Shown here: piece after piece, positions 931-37,741 of the stretch | Position numbering within the stretch: the first letter of the stretch is position 1 | Layout of the letters: each line of letters starts with the position of its first letter | From: an uncultured virus (IMG/VR IMGVR_UViG_3300038853_000032) | Lineage: Duplodnaviria > Heunggongvirae > Uroviricota > Caudoviricetes | Reading direction: 5' to 3' (one strand) | IMG/VR virus record: IMGVR_UViG_3300038853_000032 | Length of the DNA stretch: 56,808 nucleotides | The notes under the pieces: model-generated | The model's database searches: none | What the model was told of the DNA's origin: nothing | What the model saw: the letters and a program-made list of their open reading frames with translations, nothing else | Program-made: the position numbers and the translations under genes

Positions 931-1617
931 ATGTACACAATAGTTAAAAATTTTTTAACACATGAACAATGCGATTCCCTAATTAAGCGCTTTGAAACAA
1001 GTACAGAAATCGGAGTTAGAAGCCGAATTCGTGGAAAATTAGCTAACTTTCACCCAAAAGAAAAAGAACCTACACCAGTTTTATACGATAAACACTTACT
1101 AATAGCACACTGTTATGATATACCCTTTGATGATCCAATTACGTCTCTAACCTGGAGTTACATTAAATATTTTAGTTCGCATCATAACTTTAACATAACA
1201 CATCAAGAAGGTTTTATAGTTCATAAGTATGCTAAAAACGGCCATTTTGCGTGGCACACAGATGGCAGTACTTATTCAAACCCCCCACCTTGGTCAAGTT
1301 CCAACCCTGAAATGAGAATAGGTATTTCCGAAACTAAATACGATAAATTAAGTGTTACAATCCAACTTAGTGCCTCTACAGACTATGAAGGAGGTGAACT
1401 TCAATTTGGACAAGATTCAGAAGGCAAAACAGAAAGACCCGTAACAGAAACATATGATGACTTAAAAAAATGGAAAAAGTCTATTAATGCTATTACTACT
1501 ATTTCCCAAGATAAAGGTACTCTCTGTATATTTAACGGTTTTTCGTATCATCGCGTAACCCCCATAACTAAAGGAACCCGATATTCTCTATTAAACTTTT
1601 ATCAAGGACAAAAATAA
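931..1617 (+). CDS. 2OG-Fe(II) oxygenase (prolyl-4-hydroxylase/PKHD-like)
   Basis: HxD (WHTD), 'KLSVTIQLS...YEGGELQF', distal His and Arg in 'HRVTPITKGTRYSL'. Confidence 0.9.
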   Translation: MYTIVKNFLTHEQCDSLIKRFETSTEIGVRSRIRGKLANFHPKEKEPTPVLYDKHLLIAHCYDIPFDDPITSLTWSYIKYFSSHHNFNITHQEGFIVHKYAKNGHFAWHTDGSTYSNPPPWSSSNPEMRIGISETKYDKLSVTIQLSASTDYEGGELQFGQDSEGKTERPVTETYDDLKKWKKSINAITTISQDKGTLCIFNGFSYHRVTPITKGTRYSLLNFYQGQK

Positions 1618-2309
1618 TGCATCATACCATAATTAAAAATTTTTTAAAAGATGATGAATGTGATTATTTAATAAACTATTTTAAAAAAGACTCATCAACA
1701 AAAAAGATGGCATATGCACGTGACGATAGCCTAGTTTATGATACGCAGTTGTTAAAGATGGAATATAGTAACACAGTAGCCTGGAACCGTAAAATAGTAA
1801 AAGGAGAATTTTCCCTATTTAATAACACTAACCTAATAAACAAGAAAATATGGGATGTAATTATACATTATAGTAAACAAAATAATTTTAACATAACAGA
1901 ACAAAGAGGAATTTTCATTCAAAAATACACAAAAAATGGACATTTTACTTGGCACACAGACGGATATGGCTGGACGTATAAACCCCCACACGGACTGCCA
2001 GGAGTTAAAGAAATTGATTACGATAAATTAAGTATTTCAATTCAACTTAGTAATCCTGATGAATATGAAGGAGGCGAGCTTCAATTTGGACAAGATTCAA
2101 AAGGTAATACAAAAAGAGATCCTACGAAAGAACACGATAACTATGAATTACTTCAAAAGTCTATTACTTCCGTGTTTACTGCTCCTAAAAACAGAGGGTC
2201 TTTAGCCCTCCATAATGGATTTTCATATCATCGTGTAACTCCCATAACTAAAGGAGTACGATATTCTTTAGTAAATTTTTATCAAGGACCAAAAAATGCA
2301 ACTAACTAA
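1617..2309 (+). CDS. 2OG-Fe(II) oxygenase, close paralog of 931-1617
   Basis: WHTD, 'KLSISIQLS...YEGGELQFGQDS', 'HRVTPITKGVRYSL'. Confidence 0.9.
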   Translation: MHHTIIKNFLKDDECDYLINYFKKDSSTKKMAYARDDSLVYDTQLLKMEYSNTVAWNRKIVKGEFSLFNNTNLINKKIWDVIIHYSKQNNFNITEQRGIFIQKYTKNGHFTWHTDGYGWTYKPPHGLPGVKEIDYDKLSISIQLSNPDEYEGGELQFGQDSKGNTKRDPTKEHDNYELLQKSITSVFTAPKNRGSLALHNGFSYHRVTPITKGVRYSLVNFYQGPKNATN

Positions 2310-2928
2310 CGATTGGTATTACTTCACAGCAGCCTTGAGTAAAGAAACATGCAATAAAATAAAAAAATTGGGGAAAGGTAACTTTAAAAACGCAACAGTA
2401 AATACAAAAAAAGGTATTACACCAGAAGAAAGAATACACGGTGAAAAAACAGAGTCAGGAATAGACAAAATTGCTAGAACCAGCGATGTTGCGTGGACAA
2501 ACAAACAATGGGTATATAATTTAATCTGGCCATATATGGAAACAGCCAATGAAAAAAGCGGGTGGAAATTTGATATTAAAGCCGCCGAATCTATGCAAAT
2601 AACTCGTTACAAAAAAAGAGAATTTTATAATTTTCATAAAGACGGTAAAAGTGATAGCATATCTGTTTATGATCAACCAAATAATAAATTTTTGCATGGT
2701 CACGTAAGAAAATTAAGTATAACTGTATTGTTAAATGACAAGTATACAGGAGGAGAATTTCAATTTGCTTACTATAAAAATGGAAACTGTGAAATTACAA
2801 CACCAAACTTTACCAAAACTGGATCGATCATAGTATTTCCCTCTTTTATAGAACACAGAGTTCAACCAGTAACTAAAGGTGTAAGATATTCACTTGTTGC
2901 TTGGTTTGTGGGTCCGCCATTTAAATAA
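2296..2928 (+). CDS. 2OG-Fe(II) oxygenase (PKHD-type)
   Basis: FHKD, 'RKLSITVLLN..YTGGEFQF', 'GSIIVFPSFIEHRVQPVTKGVRYSLVAWF'. Confidence 0.92.
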   Translation: MQLTNDWYYFTAALSKETCNKIKKLGKGNFKNATVNTKKGITPEERIHGEKTESGIDKIARTSDVAWTNKQWVYNLIWPYMETANEKSGWKFDIKAAESMQITRYKKREFYNFHKDGKSDSISVYDQPNNKFLHGHVRKLSITVLLNDKYTGGEFQFAYYKNGNCEITTPNFTKTGSIIVFPSFIEHRVQPVTKGVRYSLVAWFVGPPFK

Positions 2929-3104: not shown

Positions 3105-3880
3105 TTACACCTTACATTTTTGAAAACGAAATTAAAAACATACAGAGATTAGCTCCTTGGCAATTAGATTGGATCTTTGAAGAAGATATAGGACGCATCG
3201 GACCTGATATGATGTATCAAAAAATGTGGAATGAATGTGATGAAGATATTTTTATATTTCACTCAGATATGGAACCAGTTTCTGGTCATGAAATATGGTG
3301 GGATAAAGTACAACATTACGCAGATTCCTATCCTGAGGCTGGAATTTTAGGCTGTAAACTTCTTTACCCACTATGTAATGAAAATCAAAAATATTATATT
3401 GAATGTGCAGGGGGAAAATTTGAAAATAATAAACCTGATCATTACGGATCAGGTATAGAAATCGGAAGTCGAGTAACTTTTAAAACTCCTGAAGTTGATG
3501 AAGGTCAATATGATTACGTAAGAGAGGTAGCTTGGTATACGTTCGGAGGGATTTTTATTCGAAGACAAGTACTTAATGAAGTAGGAAACTTTGATGCTAC
3601 TTTTGAGTGGAGTTATAATCGTGACGTGGACTTCTGCCTTCGAACAAGAGAACTAGGATGGAAAATTTATCAAATTCCCGTTCCTTTATTCCATTATCAA
3701 AGTAAAGACATAAAAAGAATTAAAACTGAAGAAAACGCGAATGCAGAAGCACGAAACTTAATAAGATTACAAAATAAGTGGCAAAACAGCCCTTTTTATC
3801 AAACTATAGGTAAAAGAATAGAAAAAGAAACTGAATCTCAAAAATTACAAGACGAACCAGAACCAATAATAAATGATTAA
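3092..3880 (+). CDS. glycosyltransferase family 2-like (GT-A)
   Basis: 'IFIFHSD', 'AGILGCKLLYP', 'FIRRQVLNEVGNFD...YNRDVDFCLR..ELGWKIY' match the GT2 C-terminal pattern. Confidence 0.85.
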   Translation: MFTVITPYIFENEIKNIQRLAPWQLDWIFEEDIGRIGPDMMYQKMWNECDEDIFIFHSDMEPVSGHEIWWDKVQHYADSYPEAGILGCKLLYPLCNENQKYYIECAGGKFENNKPDHYGSGIEIGSRVTFKTPEVDEGQYDYVREVAWYTFGGIFIRRQVLNEVGNFDATFEWSYNRDVDFCLRTRELGWKIYQIPVPLFHYQSKDIKRIKTEENANAEARNLIRLQNKWQNSPFYQTIGKRIEKETESQKLQDEPEPIIND

Positions 3881-4064
3881 AGTTGTAATTTTATTAATAT
3901 TTATGGAAGGATTTACAATGCACATAAACGCGGATGAAATGTACGGAATAACAACAATGGAAGAATGTAAGGAAAAAATTTCTATCGTGATAAAAAATTT
4001 TGAAGCAGACCGTGGTAGCTGTATTATGTCGCACGACACACTGCCAGACACACCAAAAATATAA
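3873..4064 (+). CDS. hypothetical protein
   Basis: ORF overlapping the upstream stop; hydrophobic N-terminus, two Cys. Confidence 0.55.
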   Translation: MIKVVILLIFMEGFTMHINADEMYGITTMEECKEKISIVIKNFEADRGSCIMSHDTLPDTPKI

Positions 4065-4075
4065 GGAGAATTATT

Positions 4076-4690
4076 ATGAATCAACAACAAGTTCCTTCTG
4101 TAACTTTTAAAATCCGTGTTCGAGGTACTTCAAACGGTGATTCTAACCAATTCTATTGGGAAGACGTTACCTCACAAAAAATATTTGAAAAGAAAAATGT
4201 GGTTCTTTTTGCGTTACCAGGAGCTTTTACTCCTACTTGTGATACAAATCATCTTCCAGGATATGAAAAACGGTATCATGATTTTAAAAAGCTTGGAATT
4301 GACACAGTAGCCTGTCTTTCTGTTAACGACACTTTTGTAATGAATCAGTGGGGGAAAAGTTTAGGTGTGGAAAACATTGTACTCTTACCTGATGGTAATG
4401 GAGAATTTACTCGCCAAATGGGGATGTTAGTTAGTAAATCCAATCTAGGATTTGGAATGAGAAGTTGGCGGTACTCAATGCTAGTAACTAATGGATTTAT
4501 TAATAAAATGTTTATAGAACCCGGAATTAATGATAATCACGAAGAAGATCCGTTTTTAATCTCCGATGCGGAAACTATGGTCGGTTATGTTTCAAGCATG
4601 AGCAGTTTTTTACCTCCACCCGATCCTAGACCTTGGAAAAAAGAAGAGTCACCTTGGAATAAAAAGGAAAAAAATAATGAAACTACATAA
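4076..4690 (+). CDS. peroxiredoxin, Prx5/PGdx-type redoxin
   Basis: 'LPGAFTPTC...HLPG', 'LSVNDTFVMNQW', 'DGNGEFT..MGMLV.K..LGFGMRSWRYSM'; AAGGAG RBS. Confidence 0.93.
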   Translation: MNQQQVPSVTFKIRVRGTSNGDSNQFYWEDVTSQKIFEKKNVVLFALPGAFTPTCDTNHLPGYEKRYHDFKKLGIDTVACLSVNDTFVMNQWGKSLGVENIVLLPDGNGEFTRQMGMLVSKSNLGFGMRSWRYSMLVTNGFINKMFIEPGINDNHEEDPFLISDAETMVGYVSSMSSFLPPPDPRPWKKEESPWNKKEKNNETT

Positions 4691-16274: not shown

Positions 16275-16461
16275 AACGGAAACCTTAATTAAAATACAAA
16301 AACTTGCGGAAAAAGGTATAGAGCATATTATGAAACATGCACATCCTAATCCTGGAGATGGAAGATTACTAATACATACATTTGTATCTTATGATGCGGA
16401 AAAGACAGCACAGATATTCCAAGAACAACTTAATATAATTAAAAAAGTATTAAACGTATGA
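16267..16461 (+). CDS. hypothetical protein, paralog of 16053-16274
   Basis: KLAEKG ... IFQEQLNIIKKVL. Confidence 0.65.
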   Translation: MYETETLIKIQKLAEKGIEHIMKHAHPNPGDGRLLIHTFVSYDAEKTAQIFQEQLNIIKKVLNV

Positions 16462-17078
16462 AAATAAAAATATGTAATAAAGACCCCGTATTTCCGTTCC
16501 TCCTAGTAGACAATTGGTACACTAAAAAAGAACTAGAAAAAATTTGGAAAGAATTAAGTTTTTATACTGATTATGAAACAATGCCAAATGCAGCAGAAGG
16601 ACTAGCAGCAAAAGACGAAGAAGGTAACTCTAAAGCCGATTGTTATAGACTATACCCAGATGAAGTTTATACCCAAAAAGGCAGAAACACAAGCTATATT
16701 TTAAGATTTCAGCAACCAAAAATATTTTCTAATAAAATAAAACAAGCATTTCAAAAAACTAGTCCTGTGTACAGAAATTGGCAATCCTGCGACAAAGATA
16801 ACACGATAATTAGTTATTATGAGAACAATCACCATTACCATGCTCATTACGATAGCGCACAAGTAACAGCCTTAATATGGTTATACATAAAACCAAAAGC
16901 GTTTAGCGGGGGAAATCTCACTTTCACCGACAGTAATATAAAAGTGAGATGTAGATATAACCGTATGGTAATGTTTCCAGGTTTTTATGAACATCAAGTA
17001 GACCCCATAACTTTAAAAAAGAAAAAAGCAGGATTAGGAAGGTACTGCATTACCCACTTTTACAGCAATACTCGGTAA
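16458..17078 (+). CDS. 2OG-Fe(II) oxygenase
   Basis: 'YHAHYD', 'PKAFSGGNLTF', 'NRMVMFPG..EHQVDP....GRYCITHF'. Confidence 0.9.
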   Translation: MKIKICNKDPVFPFLLVDNWYTKKELEKIWKELSFYTDYETMPNAAEGLAAKDEEGNSKADCYRLYPDEVYTQKGRNTSYILRFQQPKIFSNKIKQAFQKTSPVYRNWQSCDKDNTIISYYENNHHYHAHYDSAQVTALIWLYIKPKAFSGGNLTFTDSNIKVRCRYNRMVMFPGFYEHQVDPITLKKKKAGLGRYCITHFYSNTR

Positions 17079-35654: not shown

Positions 35655-35881
35655 TGAAACACCTAATTTTACTCATGCTACCTATATTTCTTATAGGTTG
35701 CGAAACTTATGAACCCTTAATCGACCTTAAAGCAAGCGAAGATGACAAAGCTAAACACGCACAAGAAGATCACATGGAATGTGAATGGTTAATAAATCGT
35801 TATGTTCAAGGTTGGTTTATTGATGAAAACGAGATGATAAGAAAATGCTTACACGGACGCGGACACTCTGTTCTCAATTAA
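35654..35881 (+). CDS. small lipoprotein
   Basis: Lipobox LIGC; C-terminal 'CLHGRGHSVLN'. Confidence 0.75.
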   Translation: MKHLILLMLPIFLIGCETYEPLIDLKASEDDKAKHAQEDHMECEWLINRYVQGWFIDENEMIRKCLHGRGHSVLN

Positions 35882-36327
35882 TTCTTAGTACGATGTTACT
35901 CGGTTGTACAACCAGTGACTTTGAAGATTTCAGATGGTGGCACACAAAAAAAGCAGAAGTAGATTTAGCAACTGTTTCTGATCCTTCTCAGTACCAAAGA
36001 GATTATGCAGAGTGTTATTCATGGTCAAGTGCTCACGTACAAGGACACGCTAATATTGCTACCGATACCGGAAAAGGAATAATTCAAAGCGGAACTACTA
36101 ACTACGCAATAAATTCCATATTCCCTGATCCTACGTTAGCTATGTCCACCACTGTAATAAATGGAGCCGCAGGAGGAGCAATAGGTGGATTTATGTGGTC
36201 TTCGTGGACAAGTAATTTTAAAATAAATTTTTATACCGCAAAATGTTTAATAGGAAGAGGTTATATTCTTTTAGACCACGAATGGTGGGATAAAAAAGCA
36301 GAAACAAGATTTTCTGGTATACTGTAA
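35845..36327 (+). CDS. glycine-zipper lipoprotein
   Basis: Lipobox LLGC; 'GAAGGAIGG'; 'CLIGRGYILL'. Confidence 0.7.
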   Translation: MLTRTRTLCSQLILSTMLLGCTTSDFEDFRWWHTKKAEVDLATVSDPSQYQRDYAECYSWSSAHVQGHANIATDTGKGIIQSGTTNYAINSIFPDPTLAMSTTVINGAAGGAIGGFMWSSWTSNFKINFYTAKCLIGRGYILLDHEWWDKKAETRFSGIL

Positions 36328-36353
36328 AAAAGCCCCTTTATGGGGCTTTTTTT
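36326..36353. terminator. bidirectional intrinsic terminator where the two arms converge
   Basis: AAAAAAGCCCC-TTTAT-GGGGCTTTTTTT. Confidence 0.9.
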
Positions 36354-36364
36354 ATACAAAATAC

Positions 36365-36451
36365 TGGCTCCGAGGGCTGGATTCGAACCAGCACGCTCTT
36401 TCAAGCACTAGCTAAACAGGCTAGCATGTCTCCCATTTCCATCACCCCGGA
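36365..36451 (-). tRNA. 87-nt tRNA, anticodon GTT (Asn), non-canonical Leu-type body with long variable arm; CCA encoded
   Basis: TCCGGGG TG ATGGAAATGGGAGACAT G CTAGC CTGTTTA GCTAG TGCTTGAAAGAGCGT GCTGG TTCGAAT CCAGC CCTCGGA G CCA; all stems pair. Confidence 0.9.
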
Positions 36452-36461
36452 TCAATCAGTA

Positions 36462-37340
36462 TTAGTGAACAGTTGCACCGTTATAAAATTCGTATGCCCT
36501 CAATAACCGTGTTATTCCAATTCCTCCTCCCACTCTAGGAATGAAATCATGATTCAAAAACTCATTCAATTCTTTCTCTACGCGTTCTTTGCTGAATTGG
36601 TTAAACAATAATTCTGCGTATTTTCCATCACTTATTGTATGAAACATATGACGCATTTCTTCAGTATCACTACTACGCTCTGCTGACCCTATTGTTTCTT
36701 GTCCAGCTATAATCACGTCTATCTTAGCAGCAGTTCCATTACCGTTTTGTTTCATATTCCAAAAAGGACTAGTATAATTAGGAAAGTTTTTTATCATACA
36801 TACTTTACCTTTCCACTTATCATGCATCGATTCTTCCTCAGCATTAGTAAGTTCTTTTACACCAAACTCATCTGTCCAATCTTCATAATCTTTAGAAATT
36901 ATTTCATTTTGAGTACTAAAATTTAAATAATCTACTAACTCTTTTTCCATAATTTCAAGTTCTACAAACGTACCGGGAAACTCAAATTCAAACATAGGAA
37001 ATATAAGTTCATGTCTTCCTTCTACTGGATTTGGTTCTTGTCTGTATGACGTAGAGATACAAAAAAACCCCTTCGAAGAGGGGCGGGTAAGTAATTCATA
37101 TTCTAACCACATCTGGCCAGTTTGCGGAAGAGGCCAAATATTGCCTGCGTAATTATAAGTGCTGACGGTAGAAGGGTCTTCACAAGCCGCCAATATACTT
37201 AATCTATTCTGGGTATGAACTTCGTGAAAACCTTTGTCCAAAAAAAATGACCTCAATAGGCCATTAATTAACGTAAAACGTTCGGGGTTAATTAGTTGTG
37301 TCATAATCTTTCCTTCCAAATTTAAAGTTTGCTTTTGCAT
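36462..37340 (-). CDS. class IIb aaRS catalytic-core protein (AsnRS-like / asparagine synthetase AS-AR-like) with no anticodon-binding domain
   Basis: Motif 1 region 'LRSFFLDKGFHEV', 'QTGQMWLE', motif 2 'SYRQE....GRH...F.MFEFE', 'PFWNMK', 'ETIGSAER', motif 3 'GGGIGITRL'; alternative start ATG 37304. Confidence 0.88.
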   Translation of the reverse strand: MQKQTLNLEGKIMTQLINPERFTLINGLLRSFFLDKGFHEVHTQNRLSILAACEDPSTVSTYNYAGNIWPLPQTGQMWLEYELLTRPSSKGFFCISTSYRQEPNPVEGRHELIFPMFEFEFPGTFVELEIMEKELVDYLNFSTQNEIISKDYEDWTDEFGVKELTNAEEESMHDKWKGKVCMIKNFPNYTSPFWNMKQNGNGTAAKIDVIIAGQETIGSAERSSDTEEMRHMFHTISDGKYAELLFNQFSKERVEKELNEFLNHDFIPRVGGGIGITRLLRAYEFYNGATVH

Positions 37341-37741
37341 TATTTTGCTACTTTCTCAACTGCTGCTCTTTCTCGTTTTTCCATTCCCCGAGTCCATGCG
37401 CTAGCCCCTAAAATCGCTCCAAAAGCAATATGAAATAAACCGCCCCCTTGCAAAGTTAAACTCTCCCAAGAGCGCGGAGTAGTTAAAGTATTTAAAGCTT
37501 GAGCTTGTTGATCTGAAGGCATTTGTAAAATATAAGTAAAGATTTCAGATAAACTTGTCATCTCGACCTGAATAAACCAAGGCGCAATAACAAAATCAAA
37601 TAAACATATAAAAAGATATATAAGTGCAGCACACGGTCGCCACATAGAACGAACCCATTTAGCCACAGGCCCTTGAGCGTCATGATTACCATTAACAGGA
37701 CTTACTTGGAGCTGATAGCTAGTTGTAACCTCTTCAGCCAT
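37340..37741 (-). CDS. holin (3TM / GTA-holin-like)
   Basis: 'WRPCAALIYLFICLFDFVIAP', 'FHIAFGAILGASAWTRGMEK'. Confidence 0.7.
   Translation of the reverse strand: MAEEVTTSYQLQVSPVNGNHDAQGPVAKWVRSMWRPCAALIYLFICLFDFVIAPWFIQVEMTSLSEIFTYILQMPSDQQAQALNTLTTPRSWESLTLQGGGLFHIAFGAILGASAWTRGMEKRERAAVEKVAK

What the first reader, a model, noticed from the sequence alone, without database searches (positions are those of the whole stretch)
36326..37340. Candidate orthogonal pair: anticodon-domain-less AsnRS-like enzyme co-transcribed with the long-arm tRNA-Asn
Seen: a 280-292 aa class IIb synthetase core with motifs 1-3 but no N-terminal OB anticodon-binding domain. Its stop codon is followed after only 10 nt by the only tRNA I found in the window, which has the matching Asn anticodon but a class II body, and then by the terminator. 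Known: long-arm tRNAs can be recognised without the anticodon (SerRS, largely LeuRS). Truncated aaRS paralogs have other jobs: archaeal AsnRS-like AS-AR makes free Asn, GluQ/YadB glutamylates queuosine-34 of tRNA-Asp, and EpmA lysylates EF-P. Inference: (a) a minimal synthetase charges its own tRNA via acceptor stem and variable arm, giving a host-independent Asn route in a genome rich in AAY codons; or (b) it is an Asn synthetase feeding that tRNA; or (c) it aminoacylates Q34 or a protein. I know of no description of this pairing, but could not search for one.
Basis: partly seen in the sequence, partly recalled or inferred. Interest (0 to 1): 0.9.

Follow-up and report, generated by a model that had tools for sequence, protein, structure and literature searches.

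The report
Phage AsnRS-like enzyme with captive chimeric tRNA
A marine phage carries a stripped-down asparagine-tRNA-synthetase-like enzyme welded to an odd hybrid tRNA, a cassette shared by hundreds of ocean phages, and relatives of the enzyme in bacteria are instead wired to pyrimidine synthesis, so its job is probably not simple tRNA charging.

Summary
A 292-aa (or 280-aa) class IIb synthetase core with no anticodon-binding domain ends 10 nt before an 87-nt long-arm tRNA(GUU), which is followed by a terminator.

The pairing is not chance. 70 of 83 phage loci found through the enzyme carry the tRNA directly downstream. 77 of 77 real tRNAs found through a tRNA pattern have the enzyme upstream.

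The tRNA is a chimera: the acceptor stem, G73 and GUU anticodon of tRNA-Asn sit on a tRNA-Leu core. Position 33 varies and position 37 is U.

New and against a simple orthogonal pair:
- The same enzyme family, with identical active-site residues, is chromosomal in Patescibacteria and Bacteroidota without such a tRNA.
- It is repeatedly fused or adjacent to dihydroorotate dehydrogenase and PyrE/PyrF.
- Carriers tested lacked CarB (6 of 6) and PyrB (7 of 7) but had canonical AsnRS (5 of 5).

Best reading: an asparagine-activating enzyme with a metabolic, pyrimidine-linked role of its own. In one phage clade a dependent tRNA has attached to it. Whether the enzyme charges that tRNA is open (about 40%).

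I found no description in eight literature searches. Interest is high.

The parts
36462..37340 (-). Enzyme X: stand-alone class IIb (AsnRS-like) catalytic core, 292 aa (alternative start at 37304 gives 280 aa); no anticodon-binding domain
   Evidence: PF00152 only. (phrog_29758, E 1e-115, 'unknown function'). (profile versus PDB: best hit AsnRS 2xti, E 8e-16). (AF2 pLDDT 94; Foldseek top hits are human, Brugia and P. horikoshii AsnRS). (hhalign versus E. coli AsnRS, probability 96.6%).
36452..36461 (-). 10-nt spacer between the stop codon of X and the tRNA 5' end. No promoter-like site was found here, so co-transcription is inferred.
   Evidence: The same spacing (mostly 5-11 nt) is seen in 70 related loci.
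36365..36451 (-). Chimeric tRNA, 87 nt. It has the tRNA-Asn acceptor stem (U1-A72, C2-G71, C3-G70), G73, an encoded CCA, and the anticodon loop C-U-G-U-U-U-A (GUU, U37). The body is tRNA-Leu-type: a 3-bp D stem and D loop, and a 4-bp variable arm with a GAAA loop.
   Evidence: Covariation in 20 of 24 pairs across 36 homologues. Chimeric nature from the alignment with real tRNA-Leu, tRNA-Ser and tRNA-Asn. The best covariance-model hits in cellular genomes are tRNA-Leu.
36325..36353 (.). Bidirectional intrinsic-terminator-like hairpin (GCCCC TTTAT GGGGC with A and T runs). It lies between the cassette and the convergent gene 35845..36327.
   Evidence: Read from the sequence. Rfam partial matches to terminator hairpins of leader RNAs at 36289-36361. 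Not listed by the consensus scan.

Best explanation
This is a two-gene, co-transcribed asparagine cassette with one-way dependence: the tRNA depends on the enzyme, and the enzyme does not depend on the tRNA.

Shown:
- X is an AsnRS-derived catalytic core with intact ATP and adenylate motifs and an AsnRS-type side-chain pocket.
- Its active-site residues are the same whether it sits in phages with the tRNA, in phages without it, in Patescibacteria or in Bacteroidota.
- The tRNA is a chimera of the tRNA-Asn acceptor stem and anticodon on a tRNA-Leu core.

Inferred mechanism:
- X binds Asn and ATP and forms Asn-AMP.
- Family-wide, that activated Asn feeds a metabolic route coupled to dihydroorotate dehydrogenase. 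This would be a carbamoyl-phosphate-independent entry into pyrimidine synthesis, and I put it at about 55%.
- In the marine-phage clade X also serves as the loader of the adjacent tRNA, read through its tRNA-Asn acceptor stem (U1-A72, G73) rather than the anticodon. The tRNA's U37, non-U33 and long arm should make it a poor substrate for host AsnRS. I put tRNA charging by X at about 40%.

The result for the phage would be a host-independent supply of Asn-tRNA and/or pyrimidine precursor during infection of AT-rich, Asn-codon-rich genomes.
For: Pairing:
- 70 of 83 enzyme-anchored phage loci have the tRNA directly downstream.
- In the reciprocal scan anchored on the tRNA, 77 of 78 loci with at least 400 nt upstream have X. 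The single exception is a chance match inside an ORF with no tRNA.
- P-SSM2's only tRNA is this one. In P-SSM7 it stays next to X rather than joining the tRNA array.

Enzyme:
- PF00152 core only.
- Nearest solved relatives are AsnRS by profile and by fold. hhalign versus E. coli AsnRS gives E 7e-10, versus E. coli AsnA probability 0.9%.
- The 'QTGQMWLE' segment aligns with AsnRS 'QSGQLYLE', not AspRS 'QSPQLFKQ'.
- 39 signature positions are 86-100% identical across all four contexts.

tRNA:
- U1 57/57, A72 55/56, G73 56/56, G34 57/57, U35 57/57, U36 55/57, U37 53/57. Position 33 is U in only 33 of 57.
- The acceptor stem equals that of real tRNA-Asn and the D arm equals that of real tRNA-Leu.

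Metabolic link:
- 9 PyrD-X fusion clusters and 1 X-PyrF fusion.
- [PyrE-PyrF][PyrD][X] clusters in 4 Bacteroidota MAGs, plus a fifth locus (L126) with PyrE-PyrF beside X.
- A mini-DHOD sits next to X in phage contigs that also carry the tRNA.
- CarB 0 of 6, PyrB 0 of 5 and OTCace_N 0 of 5 carriers, against 14 of 14 controls.
- In one order, all 3 X carriers fall among the 15 of 101 genomes lacking PyrB.
Against: - No direct evidence shows that X touches any tRNA.
- X has no RNA-binding appendage. Phage X is very acidic (mean net charge -18) and has gained no conserved Lys/Arg relative to cellular homologues.
- Three loci (L030, L031, L048) carry a GUC (Asp) anticodon on the same acceptor stem next to an unchanged X. 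An anticodon-blind AsnRS would then put Asn at Asp codons. Invariant G34 and U35 fit charging by host anticodon-reading AsnRS or AspRS.
- 13 of 83 phage loci lack the tRNA, with no remnant found in the five of them (L009, L027, L044, L049, L050) rescanned with filters off. One tRNA (L052) has no long arm.
- The complete Saccharibacteria genome G002 has X but no PyrD or PyrF, so the pyrimidine role cannot hold everywhere.
- 12 PyrB-less genomes in the sampled order lack X.
- The tRNA-never-without-X asymmetry could come from tight linkage plus X simply being the more valuable gene.
- MAG incompleteness and the first-look filter of the genome search limit every 'absent' call. That filter missed known long-arm tRNAs.
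Confidence: 0.4

Rival explanations
1. X is purely a metabolic enzyme, an auxiliary pyrimidine-synthesis gene that makes dihydroorotate or its precursor from Asn or Asp, and it never touches tRNA. The tRNA is an ordinary, if odd, decoding tRNA charged by host AsnRS, or by AspRS in the GUC variants. It stays next to X through tight physical linkage or because both serve the Asn/Asp economy of an AT-rich phage. Its changes at positions 33 and 37 are escape from host anticodon-loop nucleases or modification enzymes.
For: - PyrD/PyrF fusions and clusters, and missing CarB and PyrB in carriers.
- Active-site residues are identical in phage and cellular X, with only 2 clade-diagnostic positions.
- X occurs without the tRNA in cells, in huge phages and in 13 of 83 phage loci.
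- The full anticodon plus G73 set is kept, and the GUU-to-GUC switch occurs beside an unchanged X.
- Recalled, not read here: a published finding that phage tRNAs carry anticodon-loop changes that evade anticodon nucleases.
Against: - The match between the tRNA's Asn identity and X's nearest synthetase family (about 1 in 20 by chance) needs an Asn link.
- The tRNA was never seen away from X (77 of 77). It stays beside X even in phages that have tRNA arrays.
- 24 of 57 unique tRNAs lack U33 and 56 of 57 lack A37 (U 53, G 3), which is unusual for an efficient decoder.
- A long variable arm on a class IIb substrate has no precedent that I know of (recalled).
- G002 has X but no PyrD or PyrF.
Confidence: 0.33
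2. The tRNA is a non-decoding carrier or cofactor for X. Asn is loaded on the dedicated tRNA, by X or by host AsnRS, and is converted there or from there into the pyrimidine precursor. The tRNA is kept off the ribosome by its non-U33, U37 and long arm. This would be analogous to the non-proteinogenic tRNA-Gly of staphylococcal cell-wall synthesis (recalled).
For: - It combines the one-way dependence of the tRNA on X with the relaxed or unusual anticodon loop and the PyrD link.
- Phage contigs L077, L078, L089 and L097 carry mini-DHOD, X and the tRNA together.
- There is precedent for aminoacyl-tRNA used outside translation by a phage enzyme: Mom uses Gly-tRNA (abstract of PMC13219725).
Against: - Cellular X works without a dedicated tRNA.
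- The chemistry gives no obvious reason for a tRNA ester, because dihydroorotate keeps the free alpha-carboxylate.
- G34, U35, U36 and U37 are conserved, so something reads the anticodon.
- No direct evidence exists.
Confidence: 0.1
3. X is an asparagine synthetase of the AsnA/AS-AR kind (Asp + NH3 + ATP gives Asn) that feeds free Asn to host AsnRS and to the extra tRNA-Asn.
For: - The precedent of an archaeal AsnRS-like core without an anticodon domain (AS-AR, PDB 3p8t) appears among the profile hits.
- The best NCBIfam hit, weak as it is, is 'asparagine synthetase A' (27 bits).
- This would fit an Asn-supply cassette.
Against: - All AsnA/AS-AR models score far below cut-off (27 versus 389 bits).
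- 3p8t matches only residues 61-162 at E 3e-7, against AsnRS at 8e-16 over 16-227.
- hhalign versus E. coli AsnA gives probability 0.9%.
- The Lys that binds the Asp side chain in AspRS is Leu here.
- 0 of 17 Patescibacteria carriers have a canonical AsnRS to use free Asn.
- 4 of 6 Bacteroidota carriers already have AsnB.
- This reading does not explain the PyrD fusions.
Confidence: 0.08
4. X aminoacylates something other than the 3' end of a tRNA: queuosine-34 of the tRNA (GluQRS-like) or a protein such as EF-P (EpmA-like).
For: Truncated synthetase paralogues of this kind exist. EpmA structures appear at the bottom of the profile hits (3a5y and 3g1z, E about 1e-3 to 3e-4).
Against: - The EpmA model scores 21.6 bits against a cut-off of 264.
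- 24 of 57 tRNAs lack U33. As I recall, U33 is part of the U33-G34-U35 element needed by the queuine-inserting enzyme, so Q34 is unlikely on many of them.
- No conserved protein partner appears next to X in phages.
- This reading does not explain the PyrD fusions.
Confidence: 0.03

Closest known systems
Canonical asparaginyl-tRNA synthetase (class IIb; e.g. PDB 1x54, 2xti, 8tc7)
   Same: Best match by sequence profile and by fold. Motifs 1-3 are present. The 'SGQ..LE' segment is of the AsnRS type rather than the AspRS 'SPQ..KQ' type.
   Different: X has no N-terminal OB anticodon-binding domain or hinge. It scores 22.6 bits against the 342.6 cut-off of TIGR00457. It sits on a very long stem branch in the tree. 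It has its own conserved insert, F233..L258, before motif 3. It co-exists with a canonical AsnRS in Bacteroidota.
Archaeal asparagine synthetase AS-AR (AsnRS2, PDB 3p8t/1nnh) and bacterial AsnA
   Same: Free-standing class II core of about 290-330 aa without an anticodon domain. It acts, or may act, on Asp/Asn as a small-molecule ligase.
   Different: Sequence relation is only weak (E 3e-7 over 100 residues; E. coli AsnA probability 0.9%). The gene context differs: a tRNA in phages and PyrD/PyrEF in bacteria.
Phage- and giant-virus-encoded synthetase plus tRNA sets; natural mistranslating pairs such as ProRSx/tRNAProX of Streptomyces (recalled, not read here)
   Same: A mobile element or accessory locus carries a synthetase-like gene beside a non-standard tRNA of matching identity.
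   Different: Here the enzyme lacks any anticodon-binding part. The tRNA is a class II-bodied chimera with non-U33 and U37. The enzyme family has a separate, pyrimidine-linked life in cells.
Class II (long-arm) tRNAs: tRNA-Leu, tRNA-Ser, bacterial tRNA-Tyr; 'allo-tRNAs' with odd anticodons (recalled)
   Same: 3-bp D stem and a long helical variable arm. The D arm is nearly identical to that of real tRNA-Leu. The covariance model built on the phage tRNA finds tRNA-Leu first in cellular genomes.
   Different: The discriminator is G73 rather than the A73 of tRNA-Leu (seen in the five tRNA-Leu that extend that far). The acceptor stem is that of tRNA-Asn. The anticodon is GUU.
Canonical de novo pyrimidine entry (CarAB, PyrB, PyrC)
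   Same: Genome context places X just upstream of PyrD, PyrE and PyrF, where dihydroorotate must be supplied.
   Different: X is a class II adenylate-forming fold, not a transcarbamoylase or amidohydrolase. Carriers lack CarB and PyrB. The reaction is unknown.

Membership tests
Asparaginyl-tRNA synthetase (AsnRS) | Class IIb catalytic core with motifs 1-3 | tested here: met
   PF00152 E 5e-15. Motif 2 and motif 3 Arg are conserved. Foldseek top hits are AsnRS.
Asparaginyl-tRNA synthetase (AsnRS) | N-terminal OB-fold anticodon-binding domain and hinge | tested here: not met
   The protein starts at the motif-1 helix. No other Pfam domain is found. The alignment with E. coli and Patescibacteria AsnRS shows about 110-140 N-terminal residues missing.
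Asparaginyl-tRNA synthetase (AsnRS) | Reaches the curated equivalog score | tested here: not met
   TIGR00457 22.6 bits versus 342.6; NF003037 24.2 versus 414.
Asparaginyl-tRNA synthetase (AsnRS) | Asn-type rather than Asp-type side-chain pocket | tested here: inconclusive
   Leu79 sits where AspRS has Lys, and the 'TGQ' segment resembles AsnRS 'SGQ'. The role of these residues is recalled from AspRS/AsnRS structures, not tested.
Asparaginyl-tRNA synthetase (AsnRS) | Aminoacylates tRNA-Asn | not testable with these tools
   Needs an aminoacylation assay.
Asparagine synthetase A / AS-AR | Reaches the curated model score, or is profile-similar to AsnA | tested here: not met
   NF005055 27.1 bits versus 389. 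3p8t E 3e-7 over residues 61-162 only. E. coli AsnA hhalign probability 0.9%.
EF-P lysine ligase EpmA | Reaches the curated model score | tested here: not met
   NF006828 21.6 bits versus 264.
PHROG phrog_29758 (function unknown) | Full-length profile match | tested here: met
   E 1.1e-115, residues 13-283 on profile positions 1-265 of 267.
Canonical bacterial tRNA-Asn | GUU anticodon, U1-A72, G73 | tested here: met
   The acceptor stem matches the real tRNA-Asn of a Saccharibacteria genome (L183).
Canonical bacterial tRNA-Asn | Class I body (4-5-nt variable loop), U33, purine-37 | tested here: not met
   The variable region is 13-38 nt in 56 of 57. U33 is present in 33 of 57. Position 37 is U in 53 of 57.
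tRNA-Leu | Class II body with a Leu-type D arm | tested here: met
   Alignment A6. Top covariance-model hits in 11 cellular genomes are tRNA-Leu.
tRNA-Leu | A73 discriminator and a Leu anticodon | tested here: not met
   G73 in 56 of 56. Anticodon is GUU, or GUC in 2 of 57.

The most novel reading that the evidence does not exclude
X defines a previously unrecognised, carbamoyl-phosphate-independent route into pyrimidine synthesis. An AsnRS-derived core activates asparagine. The activated Asn (Asn-AMP, or Asn on a tRNA) takes up CO2 and closes to dihydroorotate, for example through an N-carboxyanhydride whose carbamate carbon is attacked by the side-chain amide. The dihydroorotate is handed to a fused or adjacent dihydroorotate dehydrogenase. 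Marine phages would carry this bypass of the host's feedback-controlled CarAB/PyrB step together with a dedicated chimeric tRNA that only X can load.
Probability: 0.2. Interest if true: 0.95.

Novelty: new variant of a known kind. Interest (0 to 1): 0.82.

Why it matters
Three points would matter if confirmed.

1. The cassette would be a natural example of a tRNA rebuilt from parts of two identities and tied to an anticodon-blind synthetase core. That bears on how new tRNA/synthetase pairs arise and on orthogonal-pair engineering.

2. It is common, not a curiosity. At least 597 IMG/VR contigs encode the enzyme. They include the model cyanophages P-SSM2, P-SSM5 and P-SSM7, where it has sat annotated as 'tRNA ligase' since 2005-2010.

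3. The enzyme's fusion to dihydroorotate dehydrogenase, in genomes with no carbamoyl-phosphate synthetase or aspartate transcarbamoylase, points to a missing step of pyrimidine synthesis. That step can be tested directly with one purified protein and standard E. coli auxotrophs.

Tried and rejected
- The genome search on the window's own assembly: not held.
- The search for related loci with alignment A3: no conserved stretch, so I repeated it with the single protein.
- megablast of 15 kb of the window against GenBank phages: no match.
- Single-sequence phmmer versus PDB: no hit. Only the profile search worked.
- ESM Atlas: returned only the family's own viral clusters.
- An over-strict acceptor/T-arm pattern in Bacteroidota genomes found nothing and is uninformative.
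- RNA evidence: only assembled contigs were available. One 281-nt contig from a metatranscriptomic library covers 37120-37400 with no differences, but DNA carry-over cannot be excluded. Nothing can be said about transcript ends, processing or the tRNA.
- Patescibacteria phylogenetic profile: 0 of 17 carriers have canonical AsnRS, but only 34 of 301 sampled genomes do. The absence is therefore not significant (about 13% by chance).
- Conserved protein neighbours in phage loci are only lineage-specific genes: MoxR-type ATPase in 18 loci, then SNase, lipase, gp5 and DnaB.
- A variable-arm reader on X: no extra domain exists. Arm length runs from 6 to 38 nt, and one tRNA (L052) has no arm beside an unchanged X. 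I do not claim arm recognition.
- Host AsnRS, AsnB and GatCAB status of Prochlorococcus: no handle could be obtained and the paper search gave nothing.
Full report
**1. What is in the window**

On the minus strand, ORF 36462..37340 encodes 292 aa. A second Met at 37304 gives the 280-aa form, which exists as a database protein. Pfam sees only the class II Asp/Lys/Asn synthetase catalytic domain (residues 25-280, E 5e-15) and no anticodon-binding domain. NCBIfam equivalogs for AsnRS, AspRS, LysRS, EpmA and archaeal-type asparagine synthetase A all match a fragment at 18-27 bits, against cut-offs of 264-468. PHROGs files the protein as phrog_29758, function unknown (E 1e-115).

Ten nucleotides after the stop codon lies the only tRNA of the window: 36365..36451, 87 nt, anticodon GTT (Rfam tRNA 43.3 bits). 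A GC hairpin with flanking A and T runs at 36325-36353 follows. The window is from a siphovirus-like marine phage with lambda-type tail genes, DNA polymerase, primase/helicase and ribonucleotide reductase. It has 34.6% GC and 6.07% Asn codons.

**2. The pairing is conserved and one-sided**

tblastn finds homologues at about 60% identity in Prochlorococcus phages P-SSM2, P-SSM5 and P-SSM7, annotated 'tRNA ligase'. Homologues at 45-48% occur in two uncultured huge phages. A 2010 comparative paper merely lists the gene in a table of sporadic host-like genes (passages of PMC3037559). IMG/VR holds at least 597 contigs with a relative.

A covariance model built from 36 of the tRNAs was run over the 5 GenBank and 80 IMG/VR loci. 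Of these, 83 contain the end of the gene and 70 have the tRNA immediately downstream, usually 5-11 nt after the stop. In L073 the tRNA overlaps the ORF end.

The 13 without the tRNA are L004 and L005 (huge phages), L009/L010, L022-L025 and L027, L043/L044, L049 and L050. A filter-free scan of five of them (L009, L027, L044, L049, L050) found no remnant. The huge phages carry only ordinary 74-77-nt tRNA-Asn genes elsewhere.

For the reciprocal test I scanned IMG/VR with a pattern that specifies only tRNA features: a Leu-type D loop, a GTTT anticodon loop and the T loop. It hit at least 119 places, of which 80 were fetched and about 18 lie on contigs already seen. 78 have at least 400 nt upstream, and 77 of those have the enzyme upstream (76 on the same strand). 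The one exception lies inside a 494-aa ORF and is not a tRNA by ARAGORN.

The tRNA was therefore never seen without the enzyme, while the enzyme is seen without the tRNA. P-SSM2's complete genome has this tRNA as its only tRNA.

**3. The tRNA is a chimera with an abnormal anticodon loop**

RNAalifold supports a cloverleaf with a fifth helix, and 20 of 24 pairs show compensatory changes. Among 57 distinct full-length sequences:
- U1 57/57, A72 55/56, G73 56/56.
- G34 57/57, U35 57/57, U36 55/57 (C in two).
- Position 37 is U in 53, G in 3 and A in 1.
- Position 33 is U in only 33, A in 15, C in 8 and G in 1.
- CCA is encoded in 48 of 56.
- Total length runs from 74 to 109 nt. The variable region is 13-38 nt, except for one tRNA (L052) with 6 nt.

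I aligned the phage tRNAs with real tRNAs fetched from Patescibacteria, Bacteroidota and huge-phage genomes. The acceptor stem and discriminator are those of tRNA-Asn (UCCGGNG...CNCCGGA-G). The D arm (GUGGCGGAAUUGGUAGACGC), anticodon stem and variable arm are those of tRNA-Leu. In line with this, the model's best hits in five Patescibacteria and six Bacteroidota genomes are all ordinary tRNA-Leu, and no long-arm GUU tRNA exists there. The tRNA-Asn of a complete Saccharibacteria chromosome that carries the enzyme is a normal 73-nt tRNA.

Three points below rest on my recollection of the literature, not on tests here. U33 and a purine at 37 (t6A37 in tRNA-Asn) are near-universal in decoding tRNAs. 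The anticodon plus G73 are the identity set of E. coli AsnRS. U1-A72 is the GatCAB determinant. A preprint read here argues that t6A37 matters for AsnRS in S. pneumoniae (passages of PMC12632869).

**4. The enzyme: nearest to AsnRS, but a family of its own**

A phmmer scan of 1.84 billion representatives gives 662 clusters at E <= 1e-3, mostly of 260-310 aa. A 67-sequence profile hits solved structures in this order:
- AsnRS of Brugia, human and P. horikoshii: E 8e-16 to 2e-12.
- Archaeal-type AspRS: E 9e-15.
- AS-AR: E 3e-7, over only 100 residues.
- LysRS and EpmA: E about 1e-4 to 1e-3.

The AlphaFold model (pLDDT 94) finds AsnRS chains first. hhalign gives 96.6% probability against E. coli AsnRS and 0.9% against E. 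coli AsnA.

I aligned X with labelled AsnRS, non-discriminating AspRS, bacterial AspRS and LysRS (labels). X has 'PQTGQMWLE' where AsnRS has 'SQSGQLYLE' or 'VSGQLNGE' and AspRS has 'QSPQ.(Y/F)KQ'. The Lys that AspRS uses for the side-chain carboxylate (role recalled) is Leu in X. The motif 2 and motif 3 arginines are kept. X also has its own strongly conserved segment, F233...L258, before motif 3. In a tree the family sits on a very long stem away from AsnRS and AspRS.

**5. The enzyme lives in cells without the tRNA, next to pyrimidine genes**

A scan of one genome per prokaryotic species found 256 relatives at 54-74% identity. Most are in Patescibacteria on long chromosomal contigs, flanked by housekeeping genes: Dus upstream in 14 loci and dnaX downstream in 13. 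The family is sporadic there: 6 of 301 genomes of the phylum and 13 of 201 of one order. The 301-genome samples include one genome, G159, that is flagged as unpublished. It contributes only to these denominators.

None of 17 Patescibacteria carriers has a canonical AsnRS, and GatB is present in 5 of 5. Because only 34 of 301 Patescibacteria have AsnRS at all, the absence in carriers is not significant.

Bacteroidota give the unexpected result:
- In four MAGs the gene order is [PyrE-PyrF fusion][PyrD][X]. A fifth locus (L126) has the PyrE-PyrF fusion beside X.
- The X-adjacent PyrD is the only full-length dihydroorotate dehydrogenase in three of the five genomes. The other two have only a second, partial match.
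- A search for longer relatives returned 12 proteins: 9 PyrD-X fusions (584-661 aa, several with multiple members and contigs), one X-PyrF fusion, one GIY-YIG-X fusion and one with an unknown N-terminus.
- A short DHOD-like protein with the class-1 'NISCPN' motif lies next to X in L077, L078, L089, L097, L091 and L157. The first four also carry the long-arm tRNA.
- The carriers have a canonical AsnRS (5 of 5) and AsnB (4 of 6).
- The carriers have no aspartate carbamoyltransferase (0 of 5 at 1e-10), no transcarbamoylase N-domain at all (0 of 5 at 1e-3) and no CarB (0 of 6 at 1e-30). All 14 control genomes have each of these.
- PyrC-like proteins are present but score below the cut-off.

In a sample of 101 genomes of one carrier's order, 86 have PyrB. 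All 3 X carriers are among the 15 that lack it. The hypergeometric probability is 455/166,650 = 0.003, or 0.018 if the seed genome is left out. On the other side, 12 PyrB-less genomes have no X. The complete Saccharibacteria genome G002 has X but neither PyrD nor PyrF. P-SSM2, P-SSM7 and the huge phages have no PyrD.

**6. One function in all contexts**

39 active-site and family-signature positions are 86-100% identical in tRNA-linked phage X, tRNA-less phage X, Patescibacteria X and Bacteroidota X. Only two positions distinguish the phage clade from the cellular clade. Phage X has not gained conserved basic residues and is more acidic, with mean net charge -18 against -9.5. The tRNA-less phage loci nest inside the tRNA-bearing phage clade. 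X beside the GUC-anticodon tRNAs (L031, L048) is unchanged.

**7. Reading**

Shown:
- The cassette is real, widespread and under selection as a unit.
- The tRNA is a structured chimera with Asn acceptor and anticodon features.
- X is an AsnRS-derived adenylate-forming core.
- The X family is independently linked to dihydroorotate dehydrogenase in genomes that lack the carbamoyl-phosphate entry to pyrimidines.

Inferred:
- X binds Asn. The evidence is the pocket signature and the fact that the captive tRNA is of Asn identity, a 1-in-20 coincidence otherwise.
- X forms Asn-AMP.
- The activated Asn has a metabolic fate tied to dihydroorotate (about 55%).
- In phages X also, or instead, loads the adjacent tRNA through its acceptor stem (about 40%).

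Dihydroorotate is formally asparagine with a carbonyl bridging its two nitrogens. An Asn-plus-CO2-plus-ATP route is therefore chemically conceivable, but it is my speculation.

The main rival (33%) is that X never touches tRNA and the tRNA is charged by host AsnRS or AspRS. The GUC variants, the invariant G34-U35 and the acidic, appendage-free enzyme favour this. The abnormal positions 33 and 37 and the strict co-occurrence speak against it. The data do not decide between the two, and a few bench assays would.

**8. Novelty**

Eight full-text searches and one that returned nothing found no description of the cassette, of a long-arm tRNA-Asn, or of a function for this enzyme family. NCBI names the Patescibacteria protein 'amino acid--tRNA ligase-related protein'. 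Subscription-only papers and bioRxiv supplements were not searchable, so prior description cannot be excluded.

Noticed in passing
L001 (P-SSM2, NC_006883.2) 3819-3906 = record 162083-162168: The RefSeq tRNA-Asn feature PSSM2_199 is annotated at 164094-164179, inside CDS PSSM2_205, about 2 kb from the real tRNA. ARAGORN, the covariance model and Rfam all place the real tRNA directly after the 'tRNA ligase' gene. The locus-tag order (198, 199, 200) fits the real position.
   Followed up: yes
L054-L069, L077, L078, L082-L084 (tRNAs of 98-109 nt): A subfamily of the chimeric tRNA has a much longer variable arm, with a conserved A/T-rich insert of about 25-30 nt of the type AAUGUACUGCAAUAUAUUU. 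Its meaning is unknown.
   Followed up: no
L030, L031, L048 (anticodon GTC, G37); L058 (GTT, G37); L015 (GTT, A37); L052 (no long arm, 78 nt): Rare variants of the captive tRNA: an Asp anticodon on the same Asn-type acceptor stem, a purine at 37, or loss of the variable arm. All sit beside an unchanged enzyme.
   Followed up: partly
L077 1280-1966, L078 998-1678, L089 1276-1965, L097 4843-5526: Marine viral contigs encode a short (about 229-aa) class-1-like dihydroorotate dehydrogenase homologue with the 'NISCPN' motif close to the enzyme and tRNA cassette.
   Followed up: partly
window 37067-37084 (- strand), inside the enzyme ORF: A terminator-like hairpin (GCCCCTCTTCGAAGGGGT followed by a T run) lies within the coding sequence of X. 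It could be chance or an attenuating element.
   Followed up: no
window 931-2928 and 16458-17078: Three tandem 2OG-Fe(II) oxygenase paralogues plus a fourth copy elsewhere. The same window also holds a peroxiredoxin (4076-4690), a glycosyltransferase and an NAD-dependent DNA ligase, an unusual load of auxiliary genes for a siphovirus-like phage.
   Followed up: no
P0307 (614 aa, metagenomic): A GIY-YIG/NUMOD3 homing-endonuclease module is fused to the N-terminus of the enzyme. This is consistent with the cassette being moved by mobile elements.
   Followed up: no
L218 (LR756501.1, about 194.3-194.9 kb) and L224 (about 186 kb): The 735-kb huge phage has an array of five tRNA-Leu genes and a block with three tRNA-Asn, three tRNA-Asp and three tRNA-Ile genes, all of canonical length.
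   Followed up: no
G505-G509, G534, G545 (Bacteroidota genomes reached through L103, L118, L143, L147, L126): Free-living-size (3-7 Mb) Bacteroidota genomes with no detectable CarB, PyrB or any transcarbamoylase domain, yet with PyrD and PyrE-PyrF. In all, 15 of 101 genomes of one order lack PyrB.
   Followed up: partly
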